DNA from: Stramenopiles sp. TOSAG23-6
Taxonomy: Eukaryota
Direction of reading: 5' to 3'
Assembly (NCBI GenBank): GCA_900128565.1
Contig: LT635958.1
Location: forward strand, 1 to 32,398
Length of the DNA stretch: 32,398 bases
The position numbers and the translations under genes are program-made. Of this stretch, positions 1 through 24,500 are shown in pieces (position 1 is the stretch's first letter; the number at the start of each line of letters is the position of its first letter). The notes below the pieces were generated by a model. That model was given only the letters and a program-made list of their open reading frames with translations, was not told where the DNA came from and did no database searches.

Positions 1-53
1 GTACAAAATTTCGTACGAAAAAAAAATCAAATTTGAAAAAAAATAAAACATAC
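1..53 (-). other. Family intron #1, truncated by window edge
   Basis: Minus strand AT|GTATGTTTTATTTTTTTTCAAATTTG...TTTCGTACGAAATTTTGTAC, same architecture as the other copies; cut just before the expected CTAAC. Confidence 0.8.
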
Positions 54-1324
54 ATATTACTGTCTTCAAAATTAATATTTTTATCAAATGTAGTGCCCTC
101 ATCGTCATTGAAATTTTGGTTAGAGCTACCACCACTCACAACACGATAATTGTTATTTTCTTTGATAGTTTCACTTTTTTTACGAAGATTATCAATTTGG
201 TGGCGTAAGTTTTGATTTGTTGAATATTGAACTTTCACAGTCTCCTGTAAATGTTCAATCTGTGCGTTTTGCTGCTTTATTGTTTTTTCACTCGTTACTA
301 ATTTTTCCAATCTATCCCGACGAGCTACAGCATCATTAATAAATGGACTTTCGCATAATTGTTGCATACGATTTTCTAAATCATGTGCATCATCTTTCGC
401 AACTCGTAGTTCATCTTCTAGTTCTAGAATTCTTTGTTTCTGTAAATTATTACTCGTTTGATTAGCAGACATATCTTGTACATTTCTTCGTAGTTCACGA
501 ATTGTCAGATTATATTGATCCATTTGTGCCATCGTACGTTCTTGAATATCCTTTGCTGCATCAGCTTTAGCTTTGAGGTTATCATATCGTGTCTCCATTA
601 GTGTTCGTTGTGCAGTTTGATCTCGTAAGTCTCTTCGAAGTATCCGTAACTCATCATCTATATATGAAACATCATGGTTATTAGAATACGTTGAAGAGGA
701 GTTACTTTGTTTTGCAATACGTCGAGATAAATTGTCTCGATCTTGAGCCAGTCTTTGCATATGTGCTTCAGTACTAGCAACACGAGCACGAAGGGCATTC
801 ACCAATTGCTGCGTTCTTTGGTTTGGTGCAGATGACGCAAAACTGCGAAGCATATTTTCAAGTCCGTCTTTCCTGGGACTATTATTTTGAGATTGGTTGG
901 AGAGAGTTGATAAACCAATGCGATTCCCAGATTTACCATTTTTAATACGCGGACTAGACCTTACCGGTCCAGATCGATTACGCATGCGGCCTCCTCTCCC
1001 ACGGCGGGAACCTCCTCGTTGTACTTCTGCTCGTAGCTTTTTTACCTGTGTTGTAAGTGCTGCATTAGCACGGGTCAGAGTTTCATTTCGACTTCGTAAA
1101 TCATCAATGAGATCACGCTCATCGCGAGTATAGTTACCGCCTCCGAAATCATCTGGATTTGGTATGCCTTTCCTTTTGAGTGACTCTCTAATCTTTGCTA
1201 GCTTTGTATACATTCGCTTAATTGTCTCTGCCTGTTCATTACACTTTTTCTTCAATGCATCATAGCCATGCTCTCCTTCTTTTAGACGTAGATATTTATC
1301 TTCCCATACAGATGCACGCGACAT
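54..1324 (-). CDS. RPGRIP1L: RPGRIP1L/fantom (MKS5)-like ciliary transition-zone coiled-coil protein; first exon, gene continues off the left edge after an intron
   Basis: Not in the ORF track. My translation from ATG at 1324 is open for about 423 codons: MSRASVWEDKYLRLKE...NEQAETIKRMYTKLAKI. This resembles the RPGRIP1L N-terminus as I recall it (LEDRFLRL...IKRMATKL). Long coiled coil follows, ending at an AT|GTATGT donor. Confidence 0.75.
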
Positions 1325-1647
1325 TACGCCGAATATTTAGTATATGAGAATTATTGTGAAATTGTAACACTTCTAATTGCTGTTACCTTGGATAGAAAAT
1401 GCGTATTTTTGAAATATTGAAACAAAGGGAAGATTTTCTTTGTGCTTTTGGCAGTTATTTATAACGGGCGTATCTTCTTCTTCCAAACAAATTCGAAATT
1501 CAGCGTCAGCGAGGAATAATTTGCGAGGAATTCTTCAAATTCCGTTATTTTCATGAAAATAACGTCTCTTCATTTGACATTATTTATAATATAATATTAA
1601 ATCTTTGCACGAGTCTGATTCTGACTCGTTGGCTAAGAGAATTCAAA

Positions 1648-2919
1648 ATGTCCAAAGAAAGCTCCAATGAAGTACTGCTTTCTAAAGTTATACCAAAGCC
1701 AACGTTTAGTGTACCAATTGATATTTTATGTATGGCTGCCATGGATAAAACTTGTGACTTCAAACCAATGAAGCTTCAACGGCGACCAATGAAAGAGTCG
1801 GACGTCGTTATCGATATGAAATTTTGTGGTGTTTGTCATTCCGACCTCCACAATGCTGCAAATGATATAACAATTCTAGGAGGTTGTAAATATCCAATTG
1901 TTCCAGGTCATGAACTGGCTGGTGTATGTATTGCAGTTGGTTCTAAAGTCACAAAATTTAAGGTTGGTGATCATGTAGGAGTAGGCTGTTTAGTAGATAG
2001 TTGTTTGAGTTGTAAAGCTTGCAACCGTGGAGAGGAACAAAAGTGCAAAAAATGTGTAAGTACATACCAAGGGCAAGATAATGGTAGTGGTCGGGCTCAA
2101 ACTTATCCTGAAAATGGAATGACACTTGGAGGATATAGTACTACTATGGTTGTTAATGAACACTTTGCGATTAAAATTCCCAAAGAATATCCTCTCGAAT
2201 TTGCAGGCCCAGTAATGTGTGCAGGGGTAACAATGTATGATCCATTACGCAGGCAAAATGCAGGGAGAGGAACACGTGTTGGTATTGTCGGTTTAGGTGG
2301 ACTTGGTCAGATGGGTGTCTCCATAGCAAAAGTGATGGGTTGTTTTGTTACTGTTATTTCTAGATCACAAGCAAAATCGACTTTTGCAGAGGAACTAGGA
2401 GCTCATAATTTTTTGCTTTCTACTTCATTGGAAGGTATGAAACGTTCCAGAAAGTCACTAGATATTATCTTGAATACAATACCGGTTGCTCATGATTATA
2501 ATATATATAAACAATTGCTTGCAACAGGTGGAAAACAAGTTTTACTAGGACTTCATCCAGCTTTAGCTGCTGCGATGATAGTTGACCAAATTACTTGTCA
2601 CCATTCAAAGGTAATTGCTTCAGGCATTGGTGGTATTGAATGTACTCAGGAAGTCATGAATTTATGCAATGATCATAAGATATACCCACAGATTGAGGTA
2701 TTTCCAGTGGAGGAGTTAAATAGAGTTTTCGAAGCTCTTGACGCAAGTAATGCTACTGGTACAAGATATGTAATGGACATTGCTGGAACTTTGAACAGTG
2801 ACGCATTTAGTCGTTGTAACGCACCTCCTCCAATCTTAGAGGAAAACCGTTCAACTTTTGGTATATGCAACAGCTGTTTTGCATGTTGTCAAATGTTTTG
2901 GTGCTGTAAGTGGTGTTAA
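1648..2919 (+). CDS. Zn-dependent medium-chain alcohol dehydrogenase (cinnamyl-alcohol dehydrogenase/YahK-like) with Cys-rich C-terminal tail
   Basis: CGVCHSD, GHE, structural Zn CLSCKAC-x7-C, PVMCAGVT, Rossmann GLGGLG. Confidence 0.93.
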   Translation: MSKESSNEVLLSKVIPKPTFSVPIDILCMAAMDKTCDFKPMKLQRRPMKESDVVIDMKFCGVCHSDLHNAANDITILGGCKYPIVPGHELAGVCIAVGSKVTKFKVGDHVGVGCLVDSCLSCKACNRGEEQKCKKCVSTYQGQDNGSGRAQTYPENGMTLGGYSTTMVVNEHFAIKIPKEYPLEFAGPVMCAGVTMYDPLRRQNAGRGTRVGIVGLGGLGQMGVSIAKVMGCFVTVISRSQAKSTFAEELGAHNFLLSTSLEGMKRSRKSLDIILNTIPVAHDYNIYKQLLATGGKQVLLGLHPALAAAMIVDQITCHHSKVIASGIGGIECTQEVMNLCNDHKIYPQIEVFPVEELNRVFEALDASNATGTRYVMDIAGTLNSDAFSRCNAPPPILEENRSTFGICNSCFACCQMFWCCKWC

Positions 2920-3471
2920 TTTCGAGAGTTAAATAAAATGTTTTATTGTTTTGGTTACAAATTTTAAATTTATGTAGTTATGAAGCATCCTTGCTAGGGT
3001 TAGGGTTTGACGACGAGTCAAAATGTTGACATCAAAATTCAAACGTGAAAAAAAAAAATGCAAATTTTGCAAGTGGAAGGCACTGCAAGCAAACTTATTC
3101 ATAATATATTAATCTTACATTGACAACGTAAGTGACACTGTTTTATACGTATATTAAACGATGATTTATCTTACTACATCACCCCAATTCAAAGCTTACC
3201 TCCACAAGTCGTGCGGAAATGATCAAAAATTGTCACGAAAAGATATGAGCAACGCTTGTATGGCAGCTGGTTCGTTCGCATCGTGATGAGTCGTTTTCTT
3301 CCAGATGGAATAATATTGAAGTCTTTTTCAATTATAAAAAAACATTCAATTACACGTACAACATACAATCAATAAATTTAATTTATTTGGTATCATACTT
3401 TTTTTTTATCAATTTTCGAACGAAAATCGCAACACAAGGTCAAATATAGGGTTATAAATGAAAAACACAAT

Positions 3472-5028
3472 CTACCTTTGCATAGTATTCGTGTCAACAT
3501 TCAGTAAAATTTGACCCTGTTTCTGTGCCACCATCATATCAGCTAATAAACTCTGGCCTTTACCACCGGTACCAGTTACAACAACATTCTCATTGTCAGC
3601 TAGGGCAGAATACATTGCAATTTGTTGTTTTTTTAAGTTATACTGACGAACACTTTCAAGAGACTTTGCCGCTGCGCCTTCTGCAGCAGCTACAACAGCC
3701 TTACACTCACTTTGACACTTTTCTTCGGCTAACAAAGCATCAGCGTTTCTTTTCATTACAAAAGCATCACATTCAGCATTCAGTTTTTCCGATGTTGCTG
3801 CAGCTTTTGCCTTATATTGTTCCAAAACATTGACTGTTTCAGAATCCAACTTTTGGACAGCTAATCTACCTTTCGCTGTAATCTCTCTAATTTGGGCAGC
3901 TTCTTCTTCCTGGATTGCAGCAACTTTCTTCGACGTTTCAGCATTTACAGAATCAAGAATCTTTCTGGCTTCAGCAACAGCTCGAGTTCCTCTTTCAGTT
4001 TCTTTTTCTTGATCTTCTTTGTTCTTCTGATTGACCGTTTGCATTTCTTCACCCTGCTTAATAAGCTGCATTTCACTAAGCTGTCGCATTTTCTGCTCTT
4101 CAATAATAGCACTATATGTTGTGCGCTCTTCCATTTGTTTTTCAAATGTCGGAGGTAAACGAACTCGTTGAATGGCGACGTCAATAATTTCAACTCCATA
4201 TCGATTAAATTGACGATTTAATGCTAATTTCATATCTTCGGTTACATCGACACTCTTCTGTTTAGCAGATCGTATAGCTTCAGCATTACCCATTGGTGCA
4301 GTAGGTCCACCAAGTTTGTTCATCTCAATCCCAGGACCAATCGTATCAGCTTTTTTTGCTTCCATTGCTTTGGGTGGCATCATTAGTTGACTCATATCCA
4401 TTTTACCTTCTGCATTCCAATGTGGACCTTGTCGATTTCCAGATGCAGACTGAGAACGGAGGGCATATACTTCAGTGTGCTTTACTGATCTTGCCAATGC
4501 GCGAACACGTTCGTCTTGAGCGTCCTTTAACTGACGTCCCAATTCTACAGGTCCTAGTTTGTGAACAAACTCTCTCACAAGTCTGGATTCTTCATTACGA
4601 GCCACATCTCCCTTGATACGGATATTTACACAAATGTCAATCGTCACGGTAACGTCATCTGAAGTTTTACAACCACGGATAGGTGTATCAAACACAATTG
4701 CTTGTTTTGTCACAAGATGAGAAATGCGACGTTCGTTCCACGGGAAGCATGAAGCCCAATGAAACCCGGCAGGCCATACAGGTTGATCATCAAAATCAAC
4801 ATCGCGCCCTGCATCTTGCACAAGGCCATACATACCAGATGGAATTGTAATAAATGGACAACACCACCGACGTGTTGGAATTAAAAGCACTGGTGTTTCA
4901 AAAGGGTCATGTTTACCTCCGAAAATTTCATTTGCTTCAGCAGACCGAGATATTATCTTTGAAACTAATTTAGTCTCTTTACCTCCGTCAGGAATTTGAT
5001 CCCACTTATTTGGCTTTTTCTTGAACAT
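3472..5028 (-). CDS. SPFH/band-7 domain protein with C-terminal coiled coil
   Basis: CKTSDDVTVTID and LNRQFNRYGVEIIDVAIQRVRLP are SPFH-type motifs; Ala/Glu-rich coiled coil follows. Confidence 0.82.
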   Translation of the reverse strand: MFKKKPNKWDQIPDGGKETKLVSKIISRSAEANEIFGGKHDPFETPVLLIPTRRWCCPFITIPSGMYGLVQDAGRDVDFDDQPVWPAGFHWASCFPWNERRISHLVTKQAIVFDTPIRGCKTSDDVTVTIDICVNIRIKGDVARNEESRLVREFVHKLGPVELGRQLKDAQDERVRALARSVKHTEVYALRSQSASGNRQGPHWNAEGKMDMSQLMMPPKAMEAKKADTIGPGIEMNKLGGPTAPMGNAEAIRSAKQKSVDVTEDMKLALNRQFNRYGVEIIDVAIQRVRLPPTFEKQMEERTTYSAIIEEQKMRQLSEMQLIKQGEEMQTVNQKNKEDQEKETERGTRAVAEARKILDSVNAETSKKVAAIQEEEAAQIREITAKGRLAVQKLDSETVNVLEQYKAKAAATSEKLNAECDAFVMKRNADALLAEEKCQSECKAVVAAAEGAAAKSLESVRQYNLKKQQIAMYSALADNENVVVTGTGGKGQSLLADMMVAQKQGQILLNVDTNTMQR

Positions 5029-5398: not shown

Positions 5399-8035
5399 AT
5401 GAATAAGTCTTTTGCGATGAACTATATCACAGTTATATATGTTGTTTATGTAAATGTTTTAACAAAGTATGGAGTTTGTTCTGCTGAAGGAACACAGACA
5501 ATGTCATCTTCATTTGGTGCAGCACAACCAACAAAGATAACAAAAGGGATTGGACACAACCAATACAATACCCTCCCACCATCTCATGCACCGAACTTGT
5601 CAGGTTATTATCCGCAAACTCACCAATACACGAATTATCCAAATTATCAGAGTATGCCTCCTCCTACATATTACAACAGTGGAGGGCATCAACCACGAGC
5701 TCACCAGTATCATAAAGTACCTCAATATGGAAATAATGGACAACCCCCGCCGAGTAGTCTCCCAAATCATCATGCATATTCATATCCTCCGTATAATACT
5801 GGTCAAAGTTATATTCCTACTTCTTCTTATGAAAACCAAATATATTCAAATCAACAGCAAATGCACTCCTTTCAGAGCCCTGGTTCACCTCCTATGGGAT
5901 TTATCGACCCAGGAGATGCACCACCAGGTCCACAACGGGAAACGCGTCGTAATGAACGTCTTACAAGATGGTTAGAGCAAAATAGTATTCCTGGACATAA
6001 TCTTGAATTAACAACATTTTCTGGAGCCTTACCAAATACTCAGTACAGAGGTATGAAAACAAAAGTTGATGTTAAAGCTGGAGACGTATTGCTTCAAATA
6101 CCAAAAAGTGTTTTACTTTCTGAAGTTACAGCTAAATCATCTGGTCCAGAGGAAATCCAAATTCTATTTAAAGAACTTAGTAACTCTGGATCTGTGCCGG
6201 GTAAGGTACTATTAGCTTTGCACTTGCTTCGTGAATATTTTGACAGCCAATCTAAATGGGCCCCGTGGCTTCGAACTTTACCATCTCAAGCTGGAAATTT
6301 ATTATATTTTTCTGATGCTGAAATAACTGAAATGCAATGCCCTTCTGATGGATGTCCTGTTCTTGAAAAAGCACGCTCTGTTCGTATAGAATTATACAAA
6401 GTCTGGGAGACAATGAAACCTGTAATGGAGAAAGTGAATTTAATACCTAAAGGTCATTTTTCATACGAAAATTTTCAGTGGGCTTATTTGACAGTTACTA
6501 GTAGAGTATTTTCAATACGTGTTAATGATCGTTATGGTTATGGTTTAGTTGATGGAAATAAAGATAACTTTGGGACGTATTACATTGCTGCACCTTTTGC
6601 TGATATGGTAAATCACCATAATACTGAACCAGCAATACAATTTACATATGGATATAATGACAAAACGAATATGATTGAATTATTTGCTGATCAAGATTAT
6701 ACCGCTGGGCAAGAAGTATATATCTCATATGGTATTCTTACAAATCCTGATTTATTATTAAATTATGGATTTGTCTTGCGTGATAATTTATTTGAAAGTG
6801 TTGCATTGCGCATGGAAATTGATCACCAAACTCCTTTTTTTCATATGAAGAAAGCATTACTCATGTATGTTTTATTTTATTTTTTCAATTTCGAATTTAT
6901 TTTTCGTACGAGATTTTGTACCTAACGAATTTTAGTTTTTTTTTTTTGAAATATTTTTACAAAATACATTCATCACGAGTTGGTTTTCGATGAGTCAAAG
7001 AAAACATCAAATAATTCTACGATACAAAATACACAAAATACAAAAGAAAATGGTAATAAGGCTTCATATGAAGATCCAGTGATAAAAAAACGTCCAAATT
7101 CGATTGATTTTCTTACGACACAGATAAATTTAGTGGGTGATGCTTCTCAGCAGTTTATAACAGCATTACGTATTAAATCGTTTACACCAAAACCTGAAGA
7201 TATTGTAGCATTTAATTCTGTAAACAATACTATTGATGAAATATACCCAAGAAATACATCAAAATTGATGAATAATTCTACATTACCTATCTTCCCCATT
7301 TTGCCTGAGATATTTCCAGAAAACCCTTTGAGTGCAACAAATGAATTTGAAGTATATAATGGATTACTCATTAATCTTGAACAACTTCTTGGAGTATATC
7401 CAACAACATTACAACAAGATGTAGAAATATCACGAAAAGCATCTTCATATTTTACAAGTAATCCAAGATTAGCATCAGCACTTGTGATGCGAATTGAAGT
7501 AAAACGTATATTACATGCTGCATTGTTACAATGTTTCATTGGTATTAAAACTGCATTTGATTTAATATCGAAAGAACAACGACATCGTGCGTCTTCTTCG
7601 GTTGAACATGATATGTGGAAGCACTGGGATGATGGGATGAAAACATGGTTAATTCAGTGGGAAAATTGGCAACAGGATATTGATACTGTTTGGGGTAAAA
7701 ATGAATCAATGAGAACACATATGGATCGTACATTCAATTTTACTGATATTTTGGATAGTGCTGGCGATCAACGGATTGAAAATATGATACATGATGGAAT
7801 TGCGTTGGGTGCAACAGAGTCAAATGATAAGAATTTCAATAAAGTGAAGGAGATTCCTAAAAGTTATGGTAATGAGAATAATCAGGAATCAAAATCACAG
7901 CCTATGACAATTGGTCAATTATTAGCCAAATCTCAAGCTGTCATTGCTGCAGCAAATCAAAAGAAAGGAAGCAAAGTTGATGCTGAAATCGCAACTCAGA
8001 AGATGATGGAAAACATAATTCAAAGTCTGATTTGA
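5399..8035 (+). CDS. SET-domain methyltransferase (SETD3/Rubisco-LSMT-like); exons 5399-6864 and 6970-8035, start codon uncertain
   Basis: YRGM, SKWAPWLRTLP, FQWAYLTVTSRVF, PFADMVNH, EVYISYG, LLLNYGFV. The second ORF is in the same frame and has an LSMT substrate-binding-like YPTTLQQD segment. Confidence 0.85.
6865..6969 (+). other. Family intron #2 (105 nt, GT...CAT; equivalently AT...AC at 6863-6967)
   Basis: AT|GTATGT...TTTCGTACGAGATTTTGTACCTAAC...ATATTTTTACAAAATACAT|T. Contains the in-frame stop; removal gives KALL-I-HHELVF. Confidence 0.75.
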
Positions 8036-8121
8036 AAAGCAAACATAATACAAATAATAAAACATTTGATTTTATTACAATATTTTTAATTTTTAAACAC
8101 ATGCAAGATAGAGCAATATCA

Positions 8122-11888: not shown

Positions 11889-12750
11889 TCAATCCATACG
11901 ACCTTTTAATTCGCGTGTTATAACTTGTGTAGGAGTAATAATATGAACATATGCACCCCAACCACTGAGAGCGTCACGGTCAACAGCTGCGAGTAAAGAT
12001 TGTGATAAAGTTTCGAATAGTTCATCCTCATTCATATCCTTTCTAAAAAGACTTTCACAGGTACCATATAGATTATCTGCACATGTACCTGCAACAACAA
12101 AATCGTCAGTAACAACGGGTGCGCCAATTAAATCCATAGCACAAAGATAAGGTACATTGTTTTCATCGAGACCGGCAACCACTGGCTCAATGAACCAAGG
12201 ACCAAATCTCTTCTCATATAGCATATTAGAAAGCAAATGTGAGAACGTTTTTGGTTTCATTGAACGATCTTCACGCAATTCATACCTATACTGAAATAAT
12301 ATAACAAAATGCAATTATGTATGAGTCTTTATATTGTAGGGAGAGTTTATGAAGTGTACACTGGAGTTGGGGAAAGAAAACACGAAAGTAAATCCTATTG
12401 ACAACATGTTATACAAAGAAACTTATAGGCTCGGAATACTTTTTAAAGCCAACACTGGATATGAAACATAATAACACACAATTAATATACTTAAATCAAA
12501 TATATAGGGAAAAGCTTATACATACAACTTACATTTTCATACGAAAGTCAAGTTTTTCACTCATTGTCTGTACATCAGTAGCGAGACCACTGAGACCCAC
12601 TACAAGTTTGTCGTTCATTTCAAAAACACGATTGAAATTACAGCTCACTGTCTGAGCACTAGCTCCCAAGCGTCTATCAGTTGCAATACCAACACAATTC
12701 TTGCCAGCCATGGCAATCACGGCACTGCCATTGTATTCGAGAATAGACAT
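11889..12750 (-). CDS. PSMB3: Proteasome subunit beta type-3; exons 12750-12533 and 12285-11889 (204 aa)
   Basis: MSILEYNGSAVIAMAGKNCVGIA...GLSGLATDVQT; YEKRFGPWFIEPVVAGL; DRDALSGWG; C-terminal LKGRMD. Confidence 0.97.
12286..12532 (-). other. Canonical GT-AG intron (247 nt), no family motif
   Basis: AT|GTAAGT...TATAG|G restores FRMKMYELRE. Confidence 0.93.
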
Positions 12751-13036: not shown

Positions 13037-14228
13037 ATGTCGCACGTCAATGTTGATTTCTATGAATATTATTCTAAATATGATGGTCACCCTGTGTCAG
13101 GTCTCAAAACAATTCATGATTCTCTTAGGGCAGATGGTAAAAATATAATATTTTTAGCTGGGGATTCTTCTTTGGATAACAAGTTTTGGTTTTCGAACAC
13201 CGGTCCTGCAATAAATGGATACGAAAAAGTTTTGCATCCGGCGAAGATGAAATTAGATGTTTGTCGGGCCTTCAATAGAGAGTGTGTCAAACTTTCAGAC
13301 AGAAATGAAGACTGTCAGTACGCTTGTTTGAATACAGCTATTGAGGCAAGCACTTTGAACAATCGTTCGTGTGGCAAGTTACTAGACCAAGATAAGTTTA
13401 TACGAGAGTCTATCACAAACAATGATATACTCGTTGTATCCGTAGGGTTTTTTGAATTTCGTTTCAGAAATATTTCAATAAAGCATCACCTTATAAAGTT
13501 TATATTGACTCATTCGTTAGTACTGTTGACATAAACACATTTATCACAGTGGCAATGACGTTGCCTTACAGCCATTATTGTGTACTGTAATAAATATGCT
13601 AGGATTAGTCTGGTGCAGTGGACCTCAATGTTTAATGGAGCGAATGTCGTGTGCTTGTCCAATAAATACAGGCTCCATATGTGACTTTGGTTGTTTATGT
13701 TGCGGTCTTCCTAATTGTTTAATTAATGGTCTCTTAGGCTTTCCACTTGGTACTGGTTATATGGTCGATTTATTTGCCAACCGTGTTGAAAATTATGTAC
13801 GAAAACTTATTGGTGACAAAAGGCCAAAAACAATTGTTGTATGTATGATATACTTTCTAGACCAAGAATCGACAGGGTCCTGGTCAGATTGTGCTTTAAC
13901 TTGTCTTTTATACAACAAAATTCCACGTCGATTACAACTCTGTATTCAAAAGGCGTTTGAATTAGGTACAATGCGTATTAAAATAAAAGGTACAAAAGTA
14001 GTACCTTTTCCATTATTTGATGTATTAGACGGAAGTGATACTACAGATTATGTTCAACGTGTTGAGCCGAGTCCTAAAGGCGGAGAAAAAATCGCTTCAG
14101 CTATTATGGAAAAACTTTTTACAACCGATGGTGAGCTTAGTAATAGTAATAGTGTGGAAAATGATACTAATTTATCGAGTGAAATTGGTGAAAACATAGT
14201 TGCTAAAAGCAATAACATGGCGAGATAA
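13037..14228 (+). CDS. SGNH/GDSL-like hypothetical protein; exons 13037-13446 and 13550-14228
   Basis: FLAGDSSLDNK (block I-like); the spliced junction restores VVSVGGND (block III-like); DYVQRVEPS in the block V position. Confidence 0.75.
13447..13549 (+). other. Canonical GT-AG intron (103 nt) with weak GTTTTT donor
   Basis: GG|GTTTTTTG...ATCACAG|T GGC AAT GAC joins the two ORFs in frame. Confidence 0.85.
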
Positions 14229-14363
14229 TATGTTATGTTCTTTCTCAAAGTAAAATTCTTATGAAATGTTTATTTTCAAACTGAAATTGATAGTTCATTT
14301 TAGTGGGTGCATATACAAATGTTATTATGAAATAGACTTTTCTCTTGTAACCAAGAAATCATT

Positions 14364-16256: not shown

Positions 16257-16464
16257 AGCTACTTCAATCAACTGGTGTGACGTGGTGCCAGATATCTTAG
16301 ACTCTATTAATTTTTTGCAGTCTGCGAATTGAACTAATTGAACTATGTAAAAAAAAAAGAACAAATCACACCAATTTTTTTTTGACACGGATGACAGCAA
16401 AACCTGTCAATCAAAAAAAGTGATGCAGGCAGACAGTATTGTTCCATTTTTTTTGTTCTCTTCA

Positions 16465-17328
16465 CTACTTCTTTTTTTTCTTTTTTTTTTGCCATGGTAA
16501 CATCTGTGCTACTCCATATGGATTCTCGTAGTAACCTACAGGCTTTTGACCATGCCTATACAATGCTGGGTTTATACCTGGAACGGGGTCAACAGTTGTC
16601 GTTTCCCACGTATTGTGAAAAATATTTGAAATTTAAAATTCGTTAGGTACAAACTTTCATACCAAAAAACAAAAATTAAATTTGAAAATGATGAAAATGA
16701 AAACGAACATTCATCCGTCTCAATTGGTTGAGCATTTGACCGACCTCCTATTACCCAAGGAATTGAATGCACTGGAATATCTTCTCCATTTGGTTCATAA
16801 AACGGATGATGCATTGACATATCCTGCCCAGTATCCCACGGATTCCGATTTTTAAGTGAATTATGTTGTAACATCAAATCAACTCTATTTGATCCATCGT
16901 AAAGAGCAGCTCCACCAACCATTTTCTGAGGAAATCTTTGATAAAACGGCTTGAATGATTCGACAGCTTTTGCAACTTGTTCTGGAGTTTCATCTAATCG
17001 TTGCACTGTCATGAACTTGTTTTTTGAATCTCCGTCATTTTTTGCATCTCCCAAGGGAAGAGGTATTCCTGCGGGGACTTCTGGCCATTCTAAACCCTCC
17101 ATTGAACCCCGTTTTACGCGGGTATCACTAATTCCCTTGTACCTGATATGTGTAAAAGCGTATGATTGAATATTCCAACAATAAATGAATGGATAAAAAA
17201 ATAAAAGAAGTCGTTTTCAGAAAAGTAAACTGGTAAACATACATCCAGCTTCTTGTATCAAATGGAGTTTCGCCAAGTATAAATAAAGTGTTGTTCAGAG
17301 CGAATAGCAAGAAAATATATAAGTTCAT
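16465..17328 (-). CDS. Three-exon hypothetical protein with signal-peptide-like N-terminus and poly-Lys C-terminus; exons 17328-17243, 17142-16709, 16607-16465
   Basis: Joined reading MNLYIFLLFAL...SWM|YKGISDTR...MEGLEWP...IETDE|WETTTVDPVPGINPALY...WQKKKKKKK*. Confidence 0.65.
16608..16708 (-). other. Family intron #3 (101 nt; GT...CGT, or AT...AC at 16710-16610)
   Basis: AT|GTTCGTTTTC...TTTGTACCTAAC...ATATTTTTCACAATACGT|GG; end is 35 nt from the branch A. An in-frame CAG about 30 nt further on is an alternative acceptor. Confidence 0.65.
17143..17242 (-). other. Canonical GT-AG intron (100 nt), no family motif
   Basis: AT|GTATGT...ATATCAG|G; phase 2 on both sides. Confidence 0.8.
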
Positions 17329-17608
17329 TCTAGTGTTTGATTCATTCCATTCAATTCAAAAAATCATTCTCAACAATGACATTGTCAATAATTATGTTTT
17401 TTTTTCCCCTCTCGCTCTCTCTCTCTCCCCCTCCGATTAATTTAGTTGTCTTCCTCACAAACCTGCTTCGCGCCAAAAAATGTCTCCAAAGCGAAAGGTA
17501 ACAATATTGGCGCAATGGCCAATTCGCGCCATCCTCCTCCTGTGTGCGTCATTTATCTATACTTAAAGCTTTGTAAGATTCAAAACAAATCAAGCTACAT
17601 TTTATACA

Positions 17609-17881
17609 ATGGTACTCACAATGAATACTTCTTTAAAAGCAAATACGTTGAATGCTCCAGACTGTAAACAAAACTGTTTTCCAACAAAATTTTCAGCCAC
17701 ACAGACACATAGAAAAACGCAGGATGAAAACTCTAACCCGAACGTAAATGCCACATTCAATAGAAAAGAAAAACCAGTTCACGCATCTATCATTCGATTG
17801 ATTAGGGAAGAGCGACGTTTAGTTCGTGATGCAGGATATTCTCAATCGCAAAGGAAACGTGTCCTTCGGGTTCTGCAGTAG
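17609..17881 (+). CDS. Small hypothetical protein (90 aa)
   Basis: ATG-initiated ORF in an otherwise empty interval; helical, basic C-terminus. Confidence 0.4.
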   Translation: MVLTMNTSLKANTLNAPDCKQNCFPTKFSATQTHRKTQDENSNPNVNATFNRKEKPVHASIIRLIREERRLVRDAGYSQSQRKRVLRVLQ

Positions 17882-18148
17882 TGATTATGAGAAAGAAAAA
17901 AAAAAGAACTACTGCTCCATGAGTACTTTTTTTGTAGCGCAACAATTATAGTACTAGTATATCAAAAGTCGAACCATACTTTATTAGTGTACGGAATCAA
18001 AAAATAAATATTTATATAAATATGATTTTGTTATAATTCTTTATAATAGAGCAAAAAATCTTTATGCTGCTACCTCAACACACAAAAAAAANGACGNCAA
18101 AAANGTTTTNAANATTCAAAACAACTCATTTCAAGTATAGCTTTTACA

Positions 18149-21100
18149 CTAGATGAGTTTTCCACCTGCAAACATTGGTGACACTAATTCCAGCAAATCG
18201 CCACAAGGTAGACCACGATTGAGTCTACTTTTAGCTATTTTACACCAAATACGCCCTTTTGTTGGGTTAGCTTCTTCACATTTCGTTTTTACAGTAAGTG
18301 CCAATGCTTCGGCAGCTGCTTTTGTATCCTCACTTACAGCATCTTCTACTTGTTCTCTTTCGAACTGATAATATTGGGCCCAAGAGTCACCACAATTTTT
18401 ATCCAACAAAACTGCACGATTTAACCACTTTCGCGCTTTTCTAACTTTAGCGGGTTTGTATTTCCAGAATAATCGAGCAACAGCCAAAACAACTTCGACA
18501 TTCGACGAACCGCAACTCCGAAGAGCGTCTGCACTTCTTGATTTCTGTTGTTGCTTTGGTGTCATATCGATTTCAGTCGCCCAGAGTATACCAGATTTTG
18601 GACACTTTTGCAAAGCACGTGACATTAGCTTCTCTGCTAATTTTTTTTGCACGTTACTGACACTAGTATTCATAGATTGTATTGGTGTTTTAGTTATATT
18701 TGATCCATTTGGTTTGCCTTGTAATTCTAAGCGAATAGCAGCTAACCAAATAGCAGGCGATTGTGGTAACTTTAGCCTCGCAACTTCTAAAAGAGATCGA
18801 GTTTTCGTTAATGAACTAACACTTTTCTCTAATGAAGTGGCTAATAACCATAATTCAACAGATTTTGGAAATTTTGCTAAACCTTTGTGATATGTCTCTT
18901 TAGCACGACGAATCCATTTTAGATTTTTTTCATTTGACATTTGTTTCTGTCCACAAGAAAGTGAATGTTTTTCTTCATACAATTGACCCAACATCATCCA
19001 CAACTTCGCCTCTTCATCCGGAAATTTACCAAGTGCTGCTAAAAGTAACTTTTCTTCTGCATCGAGACAGGATTGTGACCATTCCAAAAGAGCTGACTTC
19101 ATCCATACTCTTGGAGTTGAATTTATTCTATTTCTTGCTTGTGAAAGTAAAGATCTTGCAGCTTCTACAGATCCTGAACTCTGTTTTAATTTTGCTGATG
19201 CGAGTAGGAGAGCCTCAGAATCGATGTGTTTCATTGCATTTTCTAATAAAATTTCTGCTGCTTCAATATCATCAAATTCTTCCCATGTATGTTTTGCTGC
19301 CATTAACCAGAATGTTTCGCATTTAGGTACACTTGATAATGCTTTCTGATATAAATTTTTCAAAGTGTATTTTGTACCATATCTTTTTTCAAATTCAACT
19401 AAATTAAACCATAGTTTCTCTTTTGAATGGTACACAGAGACGACCTTATCGTAAATAGCACGAGCGACTGCAATATTACCAGCTTTCTCTGCAGCAGTCG
19501 CTTCATCACACCATGTACGATATCTAGTGCCATCAATTATTCCAATTTCAAGACATTCTTTAGCAATTGCTGTAGCCGTATATGGAGCACCAGCTCTTTC
19601 AGCTGCAGATGCTTCTTTAAGCCATTGCTCTCTGCTTAAACTAACATCATTTGCTTCCAGTGATTTTCTAGCAAGTGAAATTATTCTTTCACATATACTT
19701 TTGATTGATGCTTCAGAGTTTTCATCGTCATTTTTTGAGTTCGCTTCCTCTAATCGTGATGCTGCAATCCAAATACGAACATCGGTAGGTACTGATAAAC
19801 GTGCTTTATTTAATACCCTCTTTGCATTATCATATGATTCTAAACGAGCTAATGCTAACCATAAATCCACAGCAGAAGGAACACATTCAACAGCACGACC
19901 AAGCATAACACGAGCATCTTCAGGCTCTTCAAGAGCCACAGCAGCCTTCCAAAGACGCACAGAATGAGGTAAAAATTCCAGAGACTTTCTCAAAACTCTT
20001 CGCTTTGCTGATGGCTTTGATTCTAATTCAGATGCACGCTCCCAAATTCGTACAGATAAAGGAAGTGAACGTACCGCATTCGCTAAAATAATTTTAGCAT
20101 TTGCATTATTCTCCATCGCAGCAGATTCTAACCACACATCTTCAGACTCTGGACACGAGACACATCCGCTTCGTATGACATTCCGTGCAGCAACCATTTT
20201 ACCTGCTGCTAATTCAAGTCTAGCATATGCAATCCATCCAGCAGGTTCTTTAGGATTAGTCTTTGTAACAGACTGTAATAAAAGTCTACCTTTTTTAATA
20301 TCAGCCATTTCACTCATTGAATTCACTTTTTGTGAATTTAAATCAGTGAGATAACCTTTTGGATCGACGACTGTCTGACCAGAGACAGAGTCAGACATCT
20401 TCTGTAATTTTCTACTCAATAATTGTTCACGAGCCTGTGCTAATTGACCACCCACCTGTAACACAGAATTACCACCACTTTGCGTCATTGGTGTTTTAAA
20501 ACCTCCAATAGGAGTCTGAAAACCTCCATATTTTTGCTGCCTTGGATCAATAAATGTTTGTTTGTTATCTGATGGTATACCCATAGTTAGAATATTGTCG
20601 GGGACAGGATATGAGACAGGTGTTATCTTTGCTTGCTTCCTCTTTAAAGAACGATCGCCAATTTCTGGAATGGCTTCCCATTCTTCGTTGCTAATCTGTT
20701 TTAAATCTTTTTTGAGATCAGCAAATTGATCTTCAATTCGTGGACGCTCTATACGGCGTTTCTTTTGTATTTCGTTTTCACGTGCTTCATTGCGAACTTT
20801 ACGTCGTTTCTCCATATGTTGGTCAACAGCCTTGTATATAGCATCTGCTTCTTTATCTTCAGTTTCGTATGGAGAATCACTAAATAAACTATGACTAAAA
20901 CCCGACTCTTTATCAAAATTTGACTCTGAAAAATCTTTCTCTCGTTCTCCATTTTCTAATTTATCCTTTCCAAAGTTACCTACTGTACCAGAACCACGAC
21001 CAGCACCTCCACGATACCCATCAGGAGCTTGACCAAAATCTGTTCGGCCTACTGCAGCAGATCCACCAACACCAAGACCCCCAAGTCCTTTCTCCCTTTC

Positions 21101-21361
21101 TTTCTTCGCAAAGGCCATCTTTGCTTGCTTTTCTGCAATCAAATCTGAGATTTCCGCACATTCGCGTTTAAACTTTTCAGTACCAAAAGAAGCGTTTAAA
21201 AATTCAGTACCCTCGTGTACATTATATCCTGCAGGACCTATATCAGCGCTTGTAGTAAACCCAAGAGCACCACGTCCAAGACCAGGAACATATCTTTTTG
21301 GCTTCAACGCTTCCTTCGCAAATGTTTTGGGGTTTCGACTAAATGCGGCACTCCCATTCAT
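18149..21361 (-). CDS. PRPF6: Pre-mRNA processing factor 6 (U5/tri-snRNP HAT-repeat protein), intronless
   Basis: YVPGLGRGALGFTTSADIGPA, FADLKKDL, WEAIPEIGD, DSVSGQTVVDPKGYLTDL, DIKKGRLLLQSVTKTNP, HAT repeats. ATG at 21361. Confidence 0.97.
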   Translation of the reverse strand: MNGSAAFSRNPKTFAKEALKPKRYVPGLGRGALGFTTSADIGPAGYNVHEGTEFLNASFGTEKFKRECAEISDLIAEKQAKMAFAKKEREKGLGGLGVGGSAAVGRTDFGQAPDGYRGGAGRGSGTVGNFGKDKLENGEREKDFSESNFDKESGFSHSLFSDSPYETEDKEADAIYKAVDQHMEKRRKVRNEARENEIQKKRRIERPRIEDQFADLKKDLKQISNEEWEAIPEIGDRSLKRKQAKITPVSYPVPDNILTMGIPSDNKQTFIDPRQQKYGGFQTPIGGFKTPMTQSGGNSVLQVGGQLAQAREQLLSRKLQKMSDSVSGQTVVDPKGYLTDLNSQKVNSMSEMADIKKGRLLLQSVTKTNPKEPAGWIAYARLELAAGKMVAARNVIRSGCVSCPESEDVWLESAAMENNANAKIILANAVRSLPLSVRIWERASELESKPSAKRRVLRKSLEFLPHSVRLWKAAVALEEPEDARVMLGRAVECVPSAVDLWLALARLESYDNAKRVLNKARLSVPTDVRIWIAASRLEEANSKNDDENSEASIKSICERIISLARKSLEANDVSLSREQWLKEASAAERAGAPYTATAIAKECLEIGIIDGTRYRTWCDEATAAEKAGNIAVARAIYDKVVSVYHSKEKLWFNLVEFEKRYGTKYTLKNLYQKALSSVPKCETFWLMAAKHTWEEFDDIEAAEILLENAMKHIDSEALLLASAKLKQSSGSVEAARSLLSQARNRINSTPRVWMKSALLEWSQSCLDAEEKLLLAALGKFPDEEAKLWMMLGQLYEEKHSLSCGQKQMSNEKNLKWIRRAKETYHKGLAKFPKSVELWLLATSLEKSVSSLTKTRSLLEVARLKLPQSPAIWLAAIRLELQGKPNGSNITKTPIQSMNTSVSNVQKKLAEKLMSRALQKCPKSGILWATEIDMTPKQQQKSRSADALRSCGSSNVEVVLAVARLFWKYKPAKVRKARKWLNRAVLLDKNCGDSWAQYYQFEREQVEDAVSEDTKAAAEALALTVKTKCEEANPTKGRIWCKIAKSRLNRGLPCGDLLELVSPMFAGGKLI

Positions 21362-21589
21362 ACTGCCTATATTTGTATAAAGTATAGAAAAAAAAAGACT
21401 CAAAACCTGGCTCAAAAGAAGACCTCGTTTATATACGGCTTTAGGTAGATGTATAGAGTGCGTCTCTCTCTGTTCGCGTTGCGTGTCACTTTTGAACGTC
21501 AATTTCGAATTTGTTATTAGCCCTAACCCTAGCTACTAGAAAGTGATGTGTAAATACTAAAAAATCTTAATATCAAAAATCTTTATTAT

Positions 21590-24500
21590 TCAACAAGGAG
21601 AACATTTCCTTAATTTTAAATCTACAATACAAACTCTCCTAAATCCAGCATGACAAAGAATTTGAAGCAGTAACATCGCATCCTCTACGCATGTTGAAAC
21701 GACACATATCAATGAACTTTGTAATTCTAAAATACTCATATGGTTAGATTTAGAATTTGAAGACGTTTTACTTTGCATTGTTTTAGGGTTAGGGTTAGTC
21801 GTAATACAGTATTCAGAATTTACAAATTGACTAATTACTCCAAGGCAAGCATTAGAACATCTTTGTTGGTCATCTACATTTAAATTTCTAGCATTTGCTG
21901 ATAACCAAGGTAAACATTCCTTTTCTACTTCTTGTATTGATGAATGAGTGATGAAAAATATTTTAAATTTTAAATCGATTAGGTATGGAATTACTTTCTT
22001 TGTAAAATATTTAAGTAAAAAATTAATTTTGAAACGTACATACAAACTACGAATACATATATGAATAGTTCGAGTTGAAACTGGTGTAATATAACTACAA
22101 AATTCAGTGTGCATGGATTATGAAAAATATTTCAAAAATTAAAATCGTTAGGTACGAAATTTCGTACGAAACAAAAATAAATTCGAAATTGAAATTGAAA
22201 TTGAAATTGAAATTGAAAACGTACATTCTATGTAACGAATTGAAATCTGTAATAAATTCATTACTTGAGTTTTTTTTCATAAATGATTTCCTACAAAATT
22301 TAGTACAAAATTCATCATACTCTTTGAAATTATTAGTCTCATCATTTTGTATATCATTTTGTATATCATTTTGTATATTTTGAGGAATTTTGAAGAATTC
22401 GCTACAATTTATCAAAATACATGATTCTTTCCATAATAAGTCTTCATGTAAAACATTCATAGGAATAAATGGAACATGTACAGTGAAAAAATATTTTAAA
22501 AAATAATTTTTGTTAGGTACAAAATTTCGTACGAAAATAAAAACAAAATTTGAAAAAAAATGAAAACGTACATTCAATGAAGGGAAGCAAATTTCATTTA
22601 CCCATGACTTCCAAATACGAAAATTTTGTATATCGAAAATAGTTTCATTGAAAATTTCATTACTTTTACTGTGTCGTTCTTGTAAATATGATACAATTTT
22701 GGTAACACGCATTGAAAATAAAGCACGTGGAGTATTAGATAACATTCTTAATGATAGTGTTAAACTTCTTTGCACATTTAGACGAGTTACAAAATCATTG
22801 AATAGATCATCACTTTGATGTGAAATTGATACAGAATGTGTTTGAAAACTTGACATTTCTATATTTGTATGATCCTTTTTTTTTGAAACATATTGATCAT
22901 CTACAATCTCAATATTTTCTACTTCATCTATATCATCGTTAAATCTTACAGTATTTATGACTTTATCAGGCAAATCATTACAACTATTACTAGTAGTAAG
23001 ATTGTCTGTACAGTTTTCATAGTCAACACATCCTTGATTAAGTTTTGAAATAAAAGTCATAACACCACTGAAATCAAGTTTCATGATTTGTTCTTTCTTT
23101 TCAATAAGAAGGGAGACACCAAGAAAAAGTACATGTATTGTGAAAAAAACACGAAATTATGAAAAAAAATTGTTAGGTACGAAATTTGGTACAAAACATA
23201 CGTAAATTAATAAATTCATGATGAAAAAAGTACATGATCAGGTTCGGTGGCAAGTAACATATCCCAAACTAAAACTAATTCTCGAACCCAAAACACATCT
23301 GAGACTGTCTTGTAGAAAAATATATATATTTTTTACATATTAGGTACGCGACGAAATTTGATATTAGGGTTAGGGTTTTAAAAAAAAATTAACCACTACT
23401 CATTTGAACAACAATACATTTGAAATTGATGATTTCAAAAACGTACATAAAGTCACAACCCAAGAAATTGCATATAATTCTGGTACAATTTCTAATTTCT
23501 GAAGGTAATTTGATAATTCTGGATCCCAGAAATGTAATATAGTAGCAAATAAGTCTAATCGTTTTATAAGAAAATTTGCTCCGTGTTCTCCTGGAAGACA
23601 ATAATCTGGTATATATTGTTCTAATAGTGATGAGAGGCATATAGAAGCAAAATGAATCCTTATGTTTTTGTGATGTATATTTTGTTTCAAATCATCGAAA
23701 GCAAAGTTTTCTTTTTTCTTCATCAAAACTTTTTCAGGATTACTTTTTAATTCTTCATTGCCTTCTACAGTATAATCATCGCTCATAAATACATGTAAAA
23801 ATAATGCTGCAATCGAATCAAATCCTTGATGATATTCTAAATTTGGATATCTTTTTGACCATTTTAATAATACATTGTGTATAGCATCAACAGATTCATT
23901 TGAAGTTAAACCATAAATTAATCCAGATTGTGCAAATCTATTTCTTTCAGAATCTACTTGAAGTAGTCCTAGGTCTGAACAATGAGAAACTTCATTTTTT
24001 TCAGTTATTAATTCATCATTGATTTGGTTGTTTCTATTTGTAGCATCACTAATATTATCATTCAAACGAAGCAGTGCAACCCAGATTTTGTAGCGATATT
24101 GTTGAGAAACTCGAAATACTTCCAAACGTCCAAACTCTTGTCGTTTCTCTACTCTAGGCTGAACTCTCAATAATTTAAGAAATTCGTCAATATACTTGAG
24201 GTCAATTTCCGAATACGCAACACCTGTGACGGCGTCATGTTTCTTTGACAAAACTATTCCTTTCGATACACAAAATCTCATGAGAACTTCATCAACGAGT
24301 ACATCAATATAATCACGATGATTCAATTTATTCTGGCGAGAATTGAGAATTTCTAAAGGATAAGGGGAACCTTGTATTCCACCGGATTCAACAGAACCAA
24401 CTTTTGAACCCATTGTGATACGACGAAATGCAACTTGTGAACTTGACTGGGAAGCAACAGCATCTCTAGACGGTGTTGAGGATTGAATTACAACTCGTGA

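What the first reader, a model, noticed from the sequence alone, without database searches (positions are those of the whole stretch)
1..23446. Family of ~100-nt introns that mostly lack a 3' AG (GT...CAT)
Seen in sequence: 8 related AT-rich inserts at 1-53, 6865-6969, 16608-16708, 21944-22039, 22113-22224, 22476-22571, 23133-23233 and 23305-23446. They interrupt 4 unrelated genes, always in sense orientation. Layout: exonic AT | GTA(C/T) or GTTCGT donor, T-rich stretch, usually TTTCGTACGAAA-like palindrome, TACCTAA(C/T), TATTTTTC-like box, end. Frame-restoring ends at the homologous position are CAT (5), CGT (1) and CAG (1). Because AT occurs at both junctions, GT-AT and a 2-nt-shifted AT-AC/CC/TC excision give the same mRNA. 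Established: U12 AT-AC introns use a RTATCCTT donor, which is absent here. Inference: an AG-independent spliceosomal intron class; I do not know it to be described. Caveat: copies #3 and #5 have in-frame AGs further downstream, and #2 has a weak alternative donor/GAG pair.
Basis: partly seen in the sequence, partly recalled or inferred. Interest (0 to 1): 0.95.

Follow-up and report, generated by a model that had tools for sequence, protein, structure and literature searches.

The report
Intron family ending AT, not AG
A marine protist genome carries about ten look-alike 100-base introns that appear to be cut out at a CAT end instead of the near-universal AG; if RNA data confirm this, its splicing machinery can work without the usual 3' signal.

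Summary
Eight related, AT-rich (18-26% GC) inserts lie at the stated coordinates, in four genes, all in sense orientation. Two more copies turned up on unrelated metagenome contigs.

- **Layout:** exon AT | GTAYGT, a T-rich stretch, a TTTCGTACGAAA palindrome, a GTACCTAAC box, then TTTTTCAYAATACAT. The end lies 35-44 nt after the putative branch A.
- **Organism:** a stramenopile close to a MAST-3 single-cell assembly (PRP6 79% identical).
- **Ordinary introns:** three unrelated introns in the same window are plain GT...AG.
- **Copy i7 (strongest):** it contains no AG at all. 36 RabGAP-TBC homologues align without a gap across its junction, and using the next in-frame AG deletes 12 conserved codons (worse in 27 of 36, never better).
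- **Copy i2:** a relative's protein aligns with a gap of exactly the 35 inserted codons.
- **Copies i2, i3, i4, i5, i6, L012:** in-frame GT-AG alternatives using downstream exonic AGs are not excluded.

Best reading is an introner-like family of major-type spliceosomal introns with a CAT 3' end. This is a new variant of a known kind: non-canonical, repeated introns are known in Amoebophrya, Fritillaria and euglenids, and rare GT-AT introns are known elsewhere.

The parts
1..53 (-). i1: 5' part of a family intron, cut by the window edge. Host is a coiled-coil gene (ATG at 1324, exon down to 54).
   Evidence: AT|GTATGTTTT...TTTCGTACGAAATTTTGTAC. Profile hit E 0.0043.
6865..6969 (+). i2: 105 nt, GTATGT...ATACAT, phase 2, with 2 in-frame stops. 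Host is a SET plus Rubisco-LSMT-substrate-binding gene (5405-8035).
   Evidence: The relative P0001 aligns with a gap of exactly these 35 codons. The alternative GTTTTA(6869)...GAG(6979) is not excluded.
16608..16708 (-). i3: 101 nt, GTTCGT...ATACGT, phase 1. Host is a small gene with a signal-peptide-like first exon (about 16465-17328).
   Evidence: An in-frame TTCCAG acceptor lies 30 nt downstream. The Logan protein P0160 (97% identical) reads into the intron, so that contig keeps it.
21944..22039 (-). i4: 96 nt, GTACGT...ACTCAT, phase 0, a divergent member with no in-frame stop. Host is the RabGAP-TBC gene (21590-24653).
   Evidence: Leave-one-out gives only E 0.41.
22113..22224 (-). i5: 112 nt, GTACGT...ATCCAT, phase 2, carries (CAATTT)n. 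Host is the TBC gene.
   Evidence: Leave-one-out E 4.5e-16. An in-frame AG lies 18 nt downstream.
22476..22571 (-). i6: 96 nt, GTACGT...GTACAT, phase 0, with no AG inside and no in-frame stop. Host is the TBC gene.
   Evidence: The only in-frame AG routes need the +5 donor and an AG 34 nt or more downstream.
23133..23233 (-). i7: 101 nt, GTACTT...ATACAT, phase 0, with no AG anywhere and 2 in-frame stops. It lies inside the TBC domain.
Evidence: Ungapped alignment of TBC homologues across the junction. None of 13 sliding registers ends in AG.
23305..23446 (-). i8: 142 nt, GTACGT...GACAG, the one copy with a canonical AG. It is the most divergent member and holds a telomere-like CCCTAACCCTAA. 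It lies inside the TBC domain.
   Evidence: The GT-AG reading gives the conserved TLF, better than the 2-nt-shifted reading in 34 of 36 with 2 ties. Not recovered by leave-one-out.
12286..12532 (-). Ordinary intron for contrast: proteasome beta-3 gene, 247 nt, AT|GTAAGT...TATAG|G.
   Evidence: The two exons align to residues 1-72 and 73/74-205 of solved beta-3 chains with no gap at this junction.
13447..13549 (+). Ordinary intron for contrast: 103 nt, GG|GTTTTT...CACAG|T.
   Evidence: It joins two reading frames as ...VVSVG|GNDVAL. The junction rests on frame and a recalled SGNH-type GGND motif; Pfam gave no hit.
17143..17242 (-). Ordinary intron for contrast: first intron of the i3 host gene, 100 nt, AT|GTATGT...ATATCAG|G.
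   Evidence: It joins an ATG-initiated hydrophobic first exon in frame to the long reading frame. This rests on frame only.

Best explanation
The inserts are copies of one introner-like element: a short intron sequence that has multiplied into unrelated genes of a MAST-3-like marine stramenopile.

Each copy brings its own splicing signals:
- a yeast-like GUAYGU donor directly after an exonic AU;
- an extended UACCUAAC branch-site box, preceded by a small CGUACG hairpin or palindrome;
- a U-rich tail ending UUUUUCAYAAUACAU.

The most likely mechanism is removal by the major (U2-type) spliceosome. The first step would occur at G of GU. The second step would occur after C-A-U, a 3' site that keeps the usual -3 C and -2 A but has U instead of G as the last base. 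That site would be chosen by its fixed distance (35-44 nt) from the branch box and by the conserved tail, not by an AG.

**Shown:**
- the family relationship and the sense-only orientation;
- restoration of the reading frame at the homologous ends;
- gap-free protein homology across the i7, i8 and i2 junctions;
- ordinary GT-AG introns in the same window.

**Inferred:**
- that the RNA is spliced at all;
- that the first intron base is G rather than the A two bases upstream;
- the branch point;
- the mode of spread. The short AT direct repeat could be a target duplication of a DNA element. The sense-only, gene-only pattern and the absence of real terminal inverted repeats fit reverse splicing or selection equally well.
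For: **A real family**
- Profile search and leave-one-out.
- An independent full copy on L012 that also restores the frame, and a 5' part on L002 after a DNA polymerase delta exon.
- 10 of 10 copies are in sense orientation, in 6 genes.
- Family ends: 6 CAT, 1 CGT and 1 CAG among 8 complete copies. The -3 base is C in 8 of 8.

**Copy i7**
- It has no AG.
- 36 TBC homologues align across ...ATEPDH|VLFLGVSLL... without a gap in the four alignments printed.
- The next in-frame AG costs 12 conserved codons and lowers the score in 27 of 36, with 9 ties and 0 better.

**Copy i2**
- tblastn of the 64%-identical relative P0001 gives one alignment whose only gap at the junction is exactly the 35 insert codons.

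**Copy i8**
- The GT register gives the conserved F of TLF. The AT-AC register gives V and scores lower in 34 of 36.

**Context**
- The donor GTATGT/GTACGT fits the major-type consensus in the GT register only (sequence; established U1/U6 pairing rules).
- Three unrelated introns in the window end in AG. The organism therefore has a normal spliceosome, and a PRP6 gene lies in the window.
Against: **No RNA evidence**
- No transcript, junction read or lariat was seen.

**GT-AG alternatives not excluded**
- i3, i5: donor +1 with the first downstream AG is in frame. i3's TTCCAG|G looks like a good acceptor.
- i4, i6: a second GT at +5 with the first downstream AG is in frame.
- i2, L012: the +5 GT with the second AG is in frame.
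- No homologue tests i3, i4, i5, i6 or L012.
- i2's advantage over its alternative is one matched His and a 2-residue gap, in a poorly conserved stretch.

**Removal not always required**
- i4 and i6 are 96 nt, in frame and free of stops, so the reading frame does not demand their removal.

**Weak family and mobility evidence for some copies**
- i4 and i8 are weak family members.
- The exonic AT before GT is also seen at 2 of 3 ordinary introns, so it need not be a target duplication.
- Predicted RNA structure is weak: z from -3.2 to +0.5, and one 6-bp helix with one compensatory change.
- Copy number in the genome is unknown, because no assembly was available.
Confidence: 0.6

Rival explanations
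1. Ordinary GT-AG splicing. The elements supply the donor (GT at +1, or the second GT at +5 of GTAYGTTTT) and the branch box. The spliceosome then uses the first suitable AG in the downstream exon, so each insertion costs the protein a few codons. The CAT end is only the end of the inserted DNA.
For: One search lists in-frame solutions:
- i3: +1 donor, AG 30 nt downstream (TTCCAG|G).
- i5: +1 donor, AG 18 nt downstream.
- i4: +5 donor, AG 13 nt downstream.
- i6: +5 donor, AG 34 nt downstream.
- i2: +5 donor, second AG, 10 nt downstream.
- L012: +5 donor, second AG, 34 nt downstream.

A GTTTTT donor is used by an ordinary intron in the window. i8 already ends in AG.
Against: - i7 has no GT at +5 and no AG. 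Its only AG route removes 12 codons that align with TBC homologues: worse in 27 of 36, never better.
- i2's route needs a GAG acceptor and a 2-residue gap against the relative, where the CAT junction needs none.
- Two different donors and non-homologous acceptors are needed, where one homologous pair of ends explains all 8 complete copies.
Confidence: 0.15
2. Minor-spliceosome (U12-type) or AT-AC-register introns. A lineage-specific minor system with changed 5' and branch motifs removes them, or cleavage is 2 nt upstream so that the introns read AT...AC/CC/TC.
For: - The minor spliceosome tolerates non-AG ends. [quoted passage not shown]
- The family has the long, strongly conserved 5' and branch boxes typical of minor introns. 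TACCTAAC shares 6 of 8 bases with TCCTTAAC.
- In the shifted register, 8 of 8 copies start with A and end with C.
Against: - The donor lacks the defining ATCC. RTATCCTTT is absent from all copies.
- The branch box lies 35-44 nt from the end, far beyond the usual 10-20 nt.
- A U-rich tract follows the box.
- In the shifted register the 5' end (AUGUAC) fits no known consensus, and i8 would give V for a conserved F: lower in 34 of 36.
- Presence of minor snRNAs could not be tested.
Confidence: 0.12
3. Not RNA splicing. The inserts might be retained (broken or alternative proteins), removed at the DNA level like ciliate eliminated sequences bounded by short repeats, or skipped by ribosomes.
For: - Short direct repeats (AT, CAT, ACAT) sit at both ends.
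- i4 and i6 are stop-free and in frame.
- One Logan-derived protein reads into i3.
Against: - i2, i7, i8 and L012 carry 2-4 in-frame stops, inside or before conserved domains.
- 10 of 10 copies are in sense orientation and carry donor, branch and U-tract signals, which DNA excision would not need.
- The repeat occurs in all three codon phases, unlike the matched take-off and landing codons of ribosomal bypass.
Confidence: 0.04

Closest known systems
Introner elements and introner-like elements (Micromonas, Aureococcus, fungi; surveys PMC9860276 and PMC12130899, review PMC11282704)
   Same: Families of near-identical short introns sit in unrelated genes. The element itself brings splice signals, and some families lack TIR/TSD. 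The size (about 100 nt) resembles that of fungal introner-like elements, which I know only from the abstract of PMC3609843 in a search listing.
   Different: Described families use GT/GC...AG. The surveys start from annotated introns and treated unfamiliar splice sites as suspect (passages). Here the default 3' end is AT. Genome-wide copy number and mobility are untested.
Non-canonical introners of Amoebophrya (PMC7789003, passages read)
   Same: Repeated introns with non-GT-AG borders, and short direct repeats overlapping the exon/intron boundaries, in a marine protist.
   Different: Amoebophrya elements have 8-20 nt inverted repeats that pair the intron ends, no conserved terminal dinucleotides, and U1 was not found. 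Here the donor and branch box are canonical and strongly conserved, only the last base departs, and the end complementarity is 3-6 nt.
MITE-derived AG-AC / AG-AT introns of Fritillaria borealis, and euglenid nonconventional introns (as summarised in review PMC11282704; abstract of PMC13326754 in the listing)
   Same: Spliceosomes or other machinery remove transposon-like introns that lack GT-AG. Some of those introns have AT as their 3' end.
   Different: In those lineages most introns are non-canonical and the 5' end is changed too. Here the ordinary introns of the same window are GT-AG, and the family keeps a textbook 5' site.
Rare GT-AT introns of animals and Physarum (PMC1557818; Physarum preprint 10.1101/2020.10.12.336362)
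   Same: The same terminal dinucleotides occur, which shows that a spliceosome can finish at A-U.
   Different: Those are single, mostly U12-type introns with the ATCC donor and a branch site close to the end. They are not a repeated family with major-type signals.

Membership tests
Major (U2-type) spliceosomal intron | 5' end GU within a GURAGU/GUAUGU-like donor | tested here: met
   GTATGT or GTACGT in 7 of the 9 copies whose 5' end is. The other two are GTTCGT (i3) and GTACTT (i7). The L002 partial copy also starts GTATGT.
Major (U2-type) spliceosomal intron | Branch site YURAY/UACUAAC-like, followed by a U-rich tract upstream of the 3' end | tested here: met
   TACCTAAY in 8 of 8 complete copies, 35-44 nt from the end, with a T-rich tail. 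This is a sequence match only; the branch point was not mapped.
Major (U2-type) spliceosomal intron | 3' end AG | tested here: not met
   AT in 6, GT in 1 and AG in 1 of 8 complete copies at the homologous, frame-restoring end. No equivalent register gives AG. i7 has no AG at all.
Major (U2-type) spliceosomal intron | Removed from mature mRNA through a lariat | not testable with these tools
No transcript-derived protein was found.
Minor (U12-type) intron | Donor RTATCCTT | tested here: not met
   No copy has it. There are 2 chance-level matches in the window, elsewhere.
Minor (U12-type) intron | Branch box TTCCTTRAC close to the 3' end (usually 10-20 nt) | tested here: not met
   TACCTAAC shares 6 of 8 bases but lies 35-44 nt from the end.
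Minor (U12-type) intron | Organism has U11/U12/U4atac/U6atac | not testable with these tools
   No genome is held. No Rfam hit in the window.
Introner / introner-like element | Many sequence-similar introns in unrelated genes | tested here: met
   10 copies in 6 genes. Pairwise identity is 49-80% in the alignment, and 87% over 71 nt in BLAST between L012 and i7. Leave-one-out recovers 5 of 7. Genome-wide count unknown.
Introner / introner-like element | Transposon hallmarks (TIR, TSD) or presence/absence polymorphism showing recent insertion | tested here: inconclusive
   There is a direct repeat of 2-4 nt (AT/CAT/ACAT) in 6 of 8 complete copies, with 1 nt in i3 and none in i8; i7's repeat also extends 9 nt into the downstream exon. 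End complementarity is only 3-6 nt (sequence). AT|GT also occurs at 2 of 3 ordinary introns. No empty site was seen.
Amoebophrya-type or euglenid-type non-canonical intron | Inverted repeats of 8-20 nt (or a +4..+6 / -8..-6 pairing) that bring the ends together | tested here: not met
   No end-to-end helix appears in the consensus fold. Single folds are weak, z from -3.2 to +0.5.

The most novel reading that the evidence does not exclude
A mobile intron family has spread through a free-living marine stramenopile with CAU, not AG, as its normal 3' splice site, in a genome whose other introns still use AG. The major spliceosome of this lineage would then complete the second step without the terminal G. 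It would pick the site by distance from an extended UACCUAAC branch box and a conserved U5-CAYAAUAC tail. If so, intron-generating elements need not bring or find an AG, which widens the set of sequences that can become introns.
Probability: 0.5. Interest if true: 0.8.

Novelty: new variant of a known kind. Interest (0 to 1): 0.66.

Why it matters
The terminal AG is among the most conserved signals in eukaryotic gene expression. Known large-scale departures come with a remodelled spliceosome (Fritillaria, Amoebophrya) or with the minor system.

Here only the last intron base departs. The donor and branch box are textbook, and ordinary GT-AG introns sit beside the family. That would give a clean natural system for asking how the 3' site is chosen in the second catalytic step.

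It also bears on gene annotation. Gene finders that allow only GT-AG would truncate every gene carrying these elements. I did not test whether that has happened in published MAST-3 gene sets; they report few genes per megabase (table in PMC5778133), which is only a hint. Introner surveys that start from annotated introns would miss such families.

Tried and rejected
**RNA evidence**
- The look-up of sequencing runs listed four metatranscriptome runs holding only 5-9% of the sampled words of 16000-24800. These were never laid, so they are no evidence of expression or habitat.

**Whole genome**
- None is held.

**Protein searches**
- The SET exon found only 2 relatives and no transcript-derived copy.
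- The i3 gene found one 97%-identical Logan protein that reads into the intron. That shows retention in that contig, not splicing.
- The search of 1.84 billion representatives found no close orthologue of the TBC protein (best E 1e-9). The i4, i5 and i6 junctions therefore stay untested by homology.

**Collection scans with the core motif**
- 19 metagenome loci were returned, and only L012 and L002 are family members.
- The single viral-collection locus, L020, is not a member.

**Known RNA families and structure**
- No Rfam family and no tRNA in the window.
- I saw no C/D box motifs by eye.
- A conserved RNA structure is not supported: one 6-bp helix, energy -2.5 kcal/mol.

**Earlier notes of this scan**
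- Nothing for this genome or sequence.
- Two Ostreococcus cases, where an 'intron family' was only shared splice signals, prompted the leave-one-out control and the comparison with the ordinary introns of this window.

**Ideas considered and dropped**
- Ribosomal bypass: the repeat is 2 nt and occurs in all phases.
- Ciliate-like DNA elimination: it would not give sense-only orientation or need splice signals.
- tRNA-type or IRE1-type splicing: I saw no matching stem-loops by eye.

**Method flaw**
- My first enumeration of GT-AG pairs used the longest upstream frame. That was wrong for the short exons, so one search replaces it.


Full report
**What the window is**

It is eukaryotic nuclear DNA, about 36% GC and gene-dense. 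Pfam names these genes:
- a zinc alcohol dehydrogenase;
- a Band-7 protein;
- a SET plus Rubisco-LSMT-substrate-binding protein;
- PP2C;
- an HMG-box protein;
- PRP1/PRP6;
- a RabGAP-TBC protein;
- a GDSL lipase;
- an MSP-domain protein.

The PRP6 reading frame is 79% identical to one EukProt entry whose label begins GSMAST32. I read that label as a MAST-3 single-cell assembly, which is my inference from the string. The next hits, at 42-46%, include many stramenopiles along with animals and amoebozoans. No whole genome is held.

**The observation**

On the sense strand of their host genes, the eight inserts align as follows:

exon-AT | GTAYGTTTTC, a T-rich stretch with TTTCAAATTT, TTTCGTACGAAA, TTT(T/C)GTACCTAAC, about 20 nt, AAATATTTTTCAYAATACAT | exon

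- **Composition:** GC is 18-26%.
- **Motif counts:** GTACCTAAY occurs 7 times against 0.25 expected. TTTCGTACGAAA with at most 1 mismatch occurs 7 times against 0.13.
- **Profile search:** a profile of the seven complete copies finds them plus the truncated i1, and nothing else below E 0.05.
- **Control against shared splice signals.** Two earlier notes of this scan had shown that an Ostreococcus 'intron family' was only shared splice signals. I therefore ran two controls.
  - Leave-one-out recovers i2, i3, i5, i6 and i7 (E 4.5e-16 to 5.5e-5). It recovers i4 only at E 0.41 and does not recover i8.
  - The three unrelated introns of the window (below) lack the palindrome and the box.
- **Copies elsewhere:** a scan of metagenome contigs with the core motif gave 19 loci, of which 2 are family members.
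  - L012 holds a full 104-nt copy (2475-2578, minus strand), AT|GTATGT...ATACAT|G. It is 87% identical to i7 over 71 nt and joins two reading frames in frame.
  - L002 holds the 5' part of a copy right after an exon matching DNA polymerase delta (E 1.5e-4). The rest of that contig is an unrelated bacterial-type gene, so I take it for a chimera.

In all there are 10 copies in 6 genes, and all are in sense orientation.

**Are they introns, and where do they end?**

- **Stops.** i2, i7, i8 and L012 carry 2-4 in-frame stops.
- **Frame.** With the family's homologous ends, all five junctions of the TBC gene give one 849-codon frame. i2 joins the SET and substrate-binding halves.
- **Homology at i2.** The relative P0001 (64% identical) aligns over the whole gene, with a gap of exactly the 35 insert codons at this junction: window ...KKALLI|HHELVFDE against ...KRELLLSHGLVKKE.
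- **Homology at i8 and i7.** 36 TBC-domain proteins were found by the representative search. In the four alignments printed they align without a gap through ...AISWVVTLF|SDVFWVRELVLVWDMLLATEPDH|VLFLGVSLLIE....
  - Replacing i7's end by the first in-frame AG, 36 nt downstream, removes 12 aligned codons. It lowers the score in 27 of 36, ties in 9 and is never better.
  - Skipping the 71-nt exon between i8 and i7 is worse in 35 of 36.
- **No AG in i7.** i7 contains no AG dinucleotide, and none of its 13 mRNA-equivalent registers ends in AG. If this gene is functional, i7 is removed at a non-AG site.
- **Register.** In i8 the GT register gives the conserved Phe of TLF. The 2-nt-shifted AT-AC register gives Val and scores lower in 34 of 36. 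The donor hexamer fits the major consensus only in the GT register. At the 3' end, -3 is C in 8 of 8 and -2 is A in 7 of 8, as in a normal CAG. The simplest description is CAG with its last base changed to T.

**What weakens it**

- **No RNA.** I obtained no RNA evidence. 
- **In-frame GT-AG routes.** One search shows they exist for every copy but i7.
  - Donor +1 with the first downstream AG: i3 (30 nt; TTCCAG|G looks like a good acceptor) and i5 (18 nt).
  - The second GT at +5 of GTAYGTTTT with the first downstream AG: i4 (13 nt) and i6 (34 nt).
  - The +5 GT with the second AG: i2 (10 nt, a GAG) and L012 (34 nt).
  - Because precise removal of an insertion is in frame by construction, frame alone cannot choose between the CAT end and these routes. 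Only homology (i7 strongly, i2 moderately) and parsimony do.
- **Stop-free copies.** i4 and i6 are 96 nt, in frame and stop-free, so their removal is not required by the frame.
- **Unspliced contig.** A 97%-identical Logan protein reads from the exon into i3. That shows only that this contig keeps the insert.

**Ordinary introns of the same organism**

- **Proteasome beta-3 gene:** it is split by a 247-nt intron, AT|GTAAGT...TATAG|G (12532 down to 12286). Its exons align to residues 1-72 and 73/74-205 of solved beta-3 chains with no gap at that junction.
- **Two more introns rest on frame continuity only:**
  - 13447-13549, GTTTTT...CACAG;
  - 17242 down to 17143, AT|GTATGT...ATATCAG|G, the first intron of the i3 host gene.

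So AG is the normal end here, and about 100 nt is a normal length. An exonic AT before GT occurs at 2 of these 3 introns, so the AT...AT repeat of the family is not proof of a target duplication.

**Mechanism**

The best reading (0.6) is that the major spliceosome removes an introner-like element that brings GUAYGU, UACCUAAC and a conserved U-rich tail. The second step would occur after CAU, 35-44 nt from the branch A.

Rivals:
- GT-AG splicing to downstream exonic AGs (0.15, possibly true for some copies such as i3);
- a diverged minor-spliceosome or AT-AC reading (0.12);
- no RNA splicing (0.04).

The U12 donor is absent, and the box is too far from the end for a typical U12 branch site. Predicted RNA structure is weak. 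The one consensus helix, GUACGA/UCGUAC, would expose CUAAC just after the stem.

How the family spreads is open. There are no real terminal inverted repeats and the sense strand is T-rich throughout. Five of the eight window copies lie within 1.5 kb of one gene.

**What is known**

- **GT-AT termini.** Passages read record them as rare U12-type introns (7 of 66 non-canonical ones in animals and plants; 17% of 1,014 in Physarum), and as a conserved U2-type case in DGCR2.
- **Repeated introns with non-canonical borders.** Passages describe them in Amoebophrya (inverted repeats of 8-20 nt, direct repeats of 3-5 nt, no conserved termini), Fritillaria (AG-AC, AG-AT), Polarella and euglenids.
- **Introner surveys.** The two large surveys start from annotated introns and list AG and AC as 3' sites. 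In the passages found they do not mention stramenopiles or MAST.
- **MAST-3 genomes.** The passages found in three papers say nothing about intron types. The term 'intron' occurs twice, in methods, in PMC5778133, and not at all in PMC8163842 or PMC12614181.
- **Literature searches.** My searches found no description of this family.

I therefore rate it a new variant of a known kind.

Noticed in passing
window 2995-3007 (+), 21519-21531 (-), 21784-21796 (+), 23365-23377 (+): The telomere-like TAGGGTTAGGGTT occurs 4 times against 0.01 expected. Two copies are between genes, one is inside the last TBC exon (read as ..TNPNPK..) and one is inside intron i8.
   Followed up: partly
window 21944-22039 and 22476-22571: i4 and i6 are both exactly 96 nt, in frame and without stop codons. 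Retaining them would add 32 residues rather than break the protein. This may be tolerance of inefficient splicing, or chance.
   Followed up: partly
window 21944-23446: Five of the eight window copies sit in one gene within 1.5 kb. Yet i7's closest relative among the aligned copies is the copy on L012, in another gene.
   Followed up: partly
window 3330-3480 (-): The Band-7 reading frame stops at a TAG that overlaps AAAG|GTAGAT. About 55 nt further on lies TTTCGTTCGAAA, a one-mismatch variant of the family palindrome. This could be a degenerate relative or another intron. The profile does not detect it.
   Followed up: no
window 12533, 17243 and all family donors: An exonic AT directly before GT is shared by 2 of 3 ordinary introns and by all family copies. 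It may be a lineage-wide donor context rather than a target duplication.
   Followed up: partly
L002:1-1076: The contig looks chimeric. A DNA polymerase delta exon plus the 5' part of a family intron is fused to the reverse strand of a bacterial-type short-chain dehydrogenase.
   Followed up: partly
window 16074 and 18092-18113: There are single N bases: one at 16074 and five within 22 nt just downstream of the PRP6 stop. They blocked the first read-laying attempt.
   Followed up: no
window 23124-23134 and 23225-23235 (-): A 12-nt direct repeat, CATGTACTTTTT, spans both ends of i7. As a result, 13 registers give the same mRNA.
   Followed up: yes
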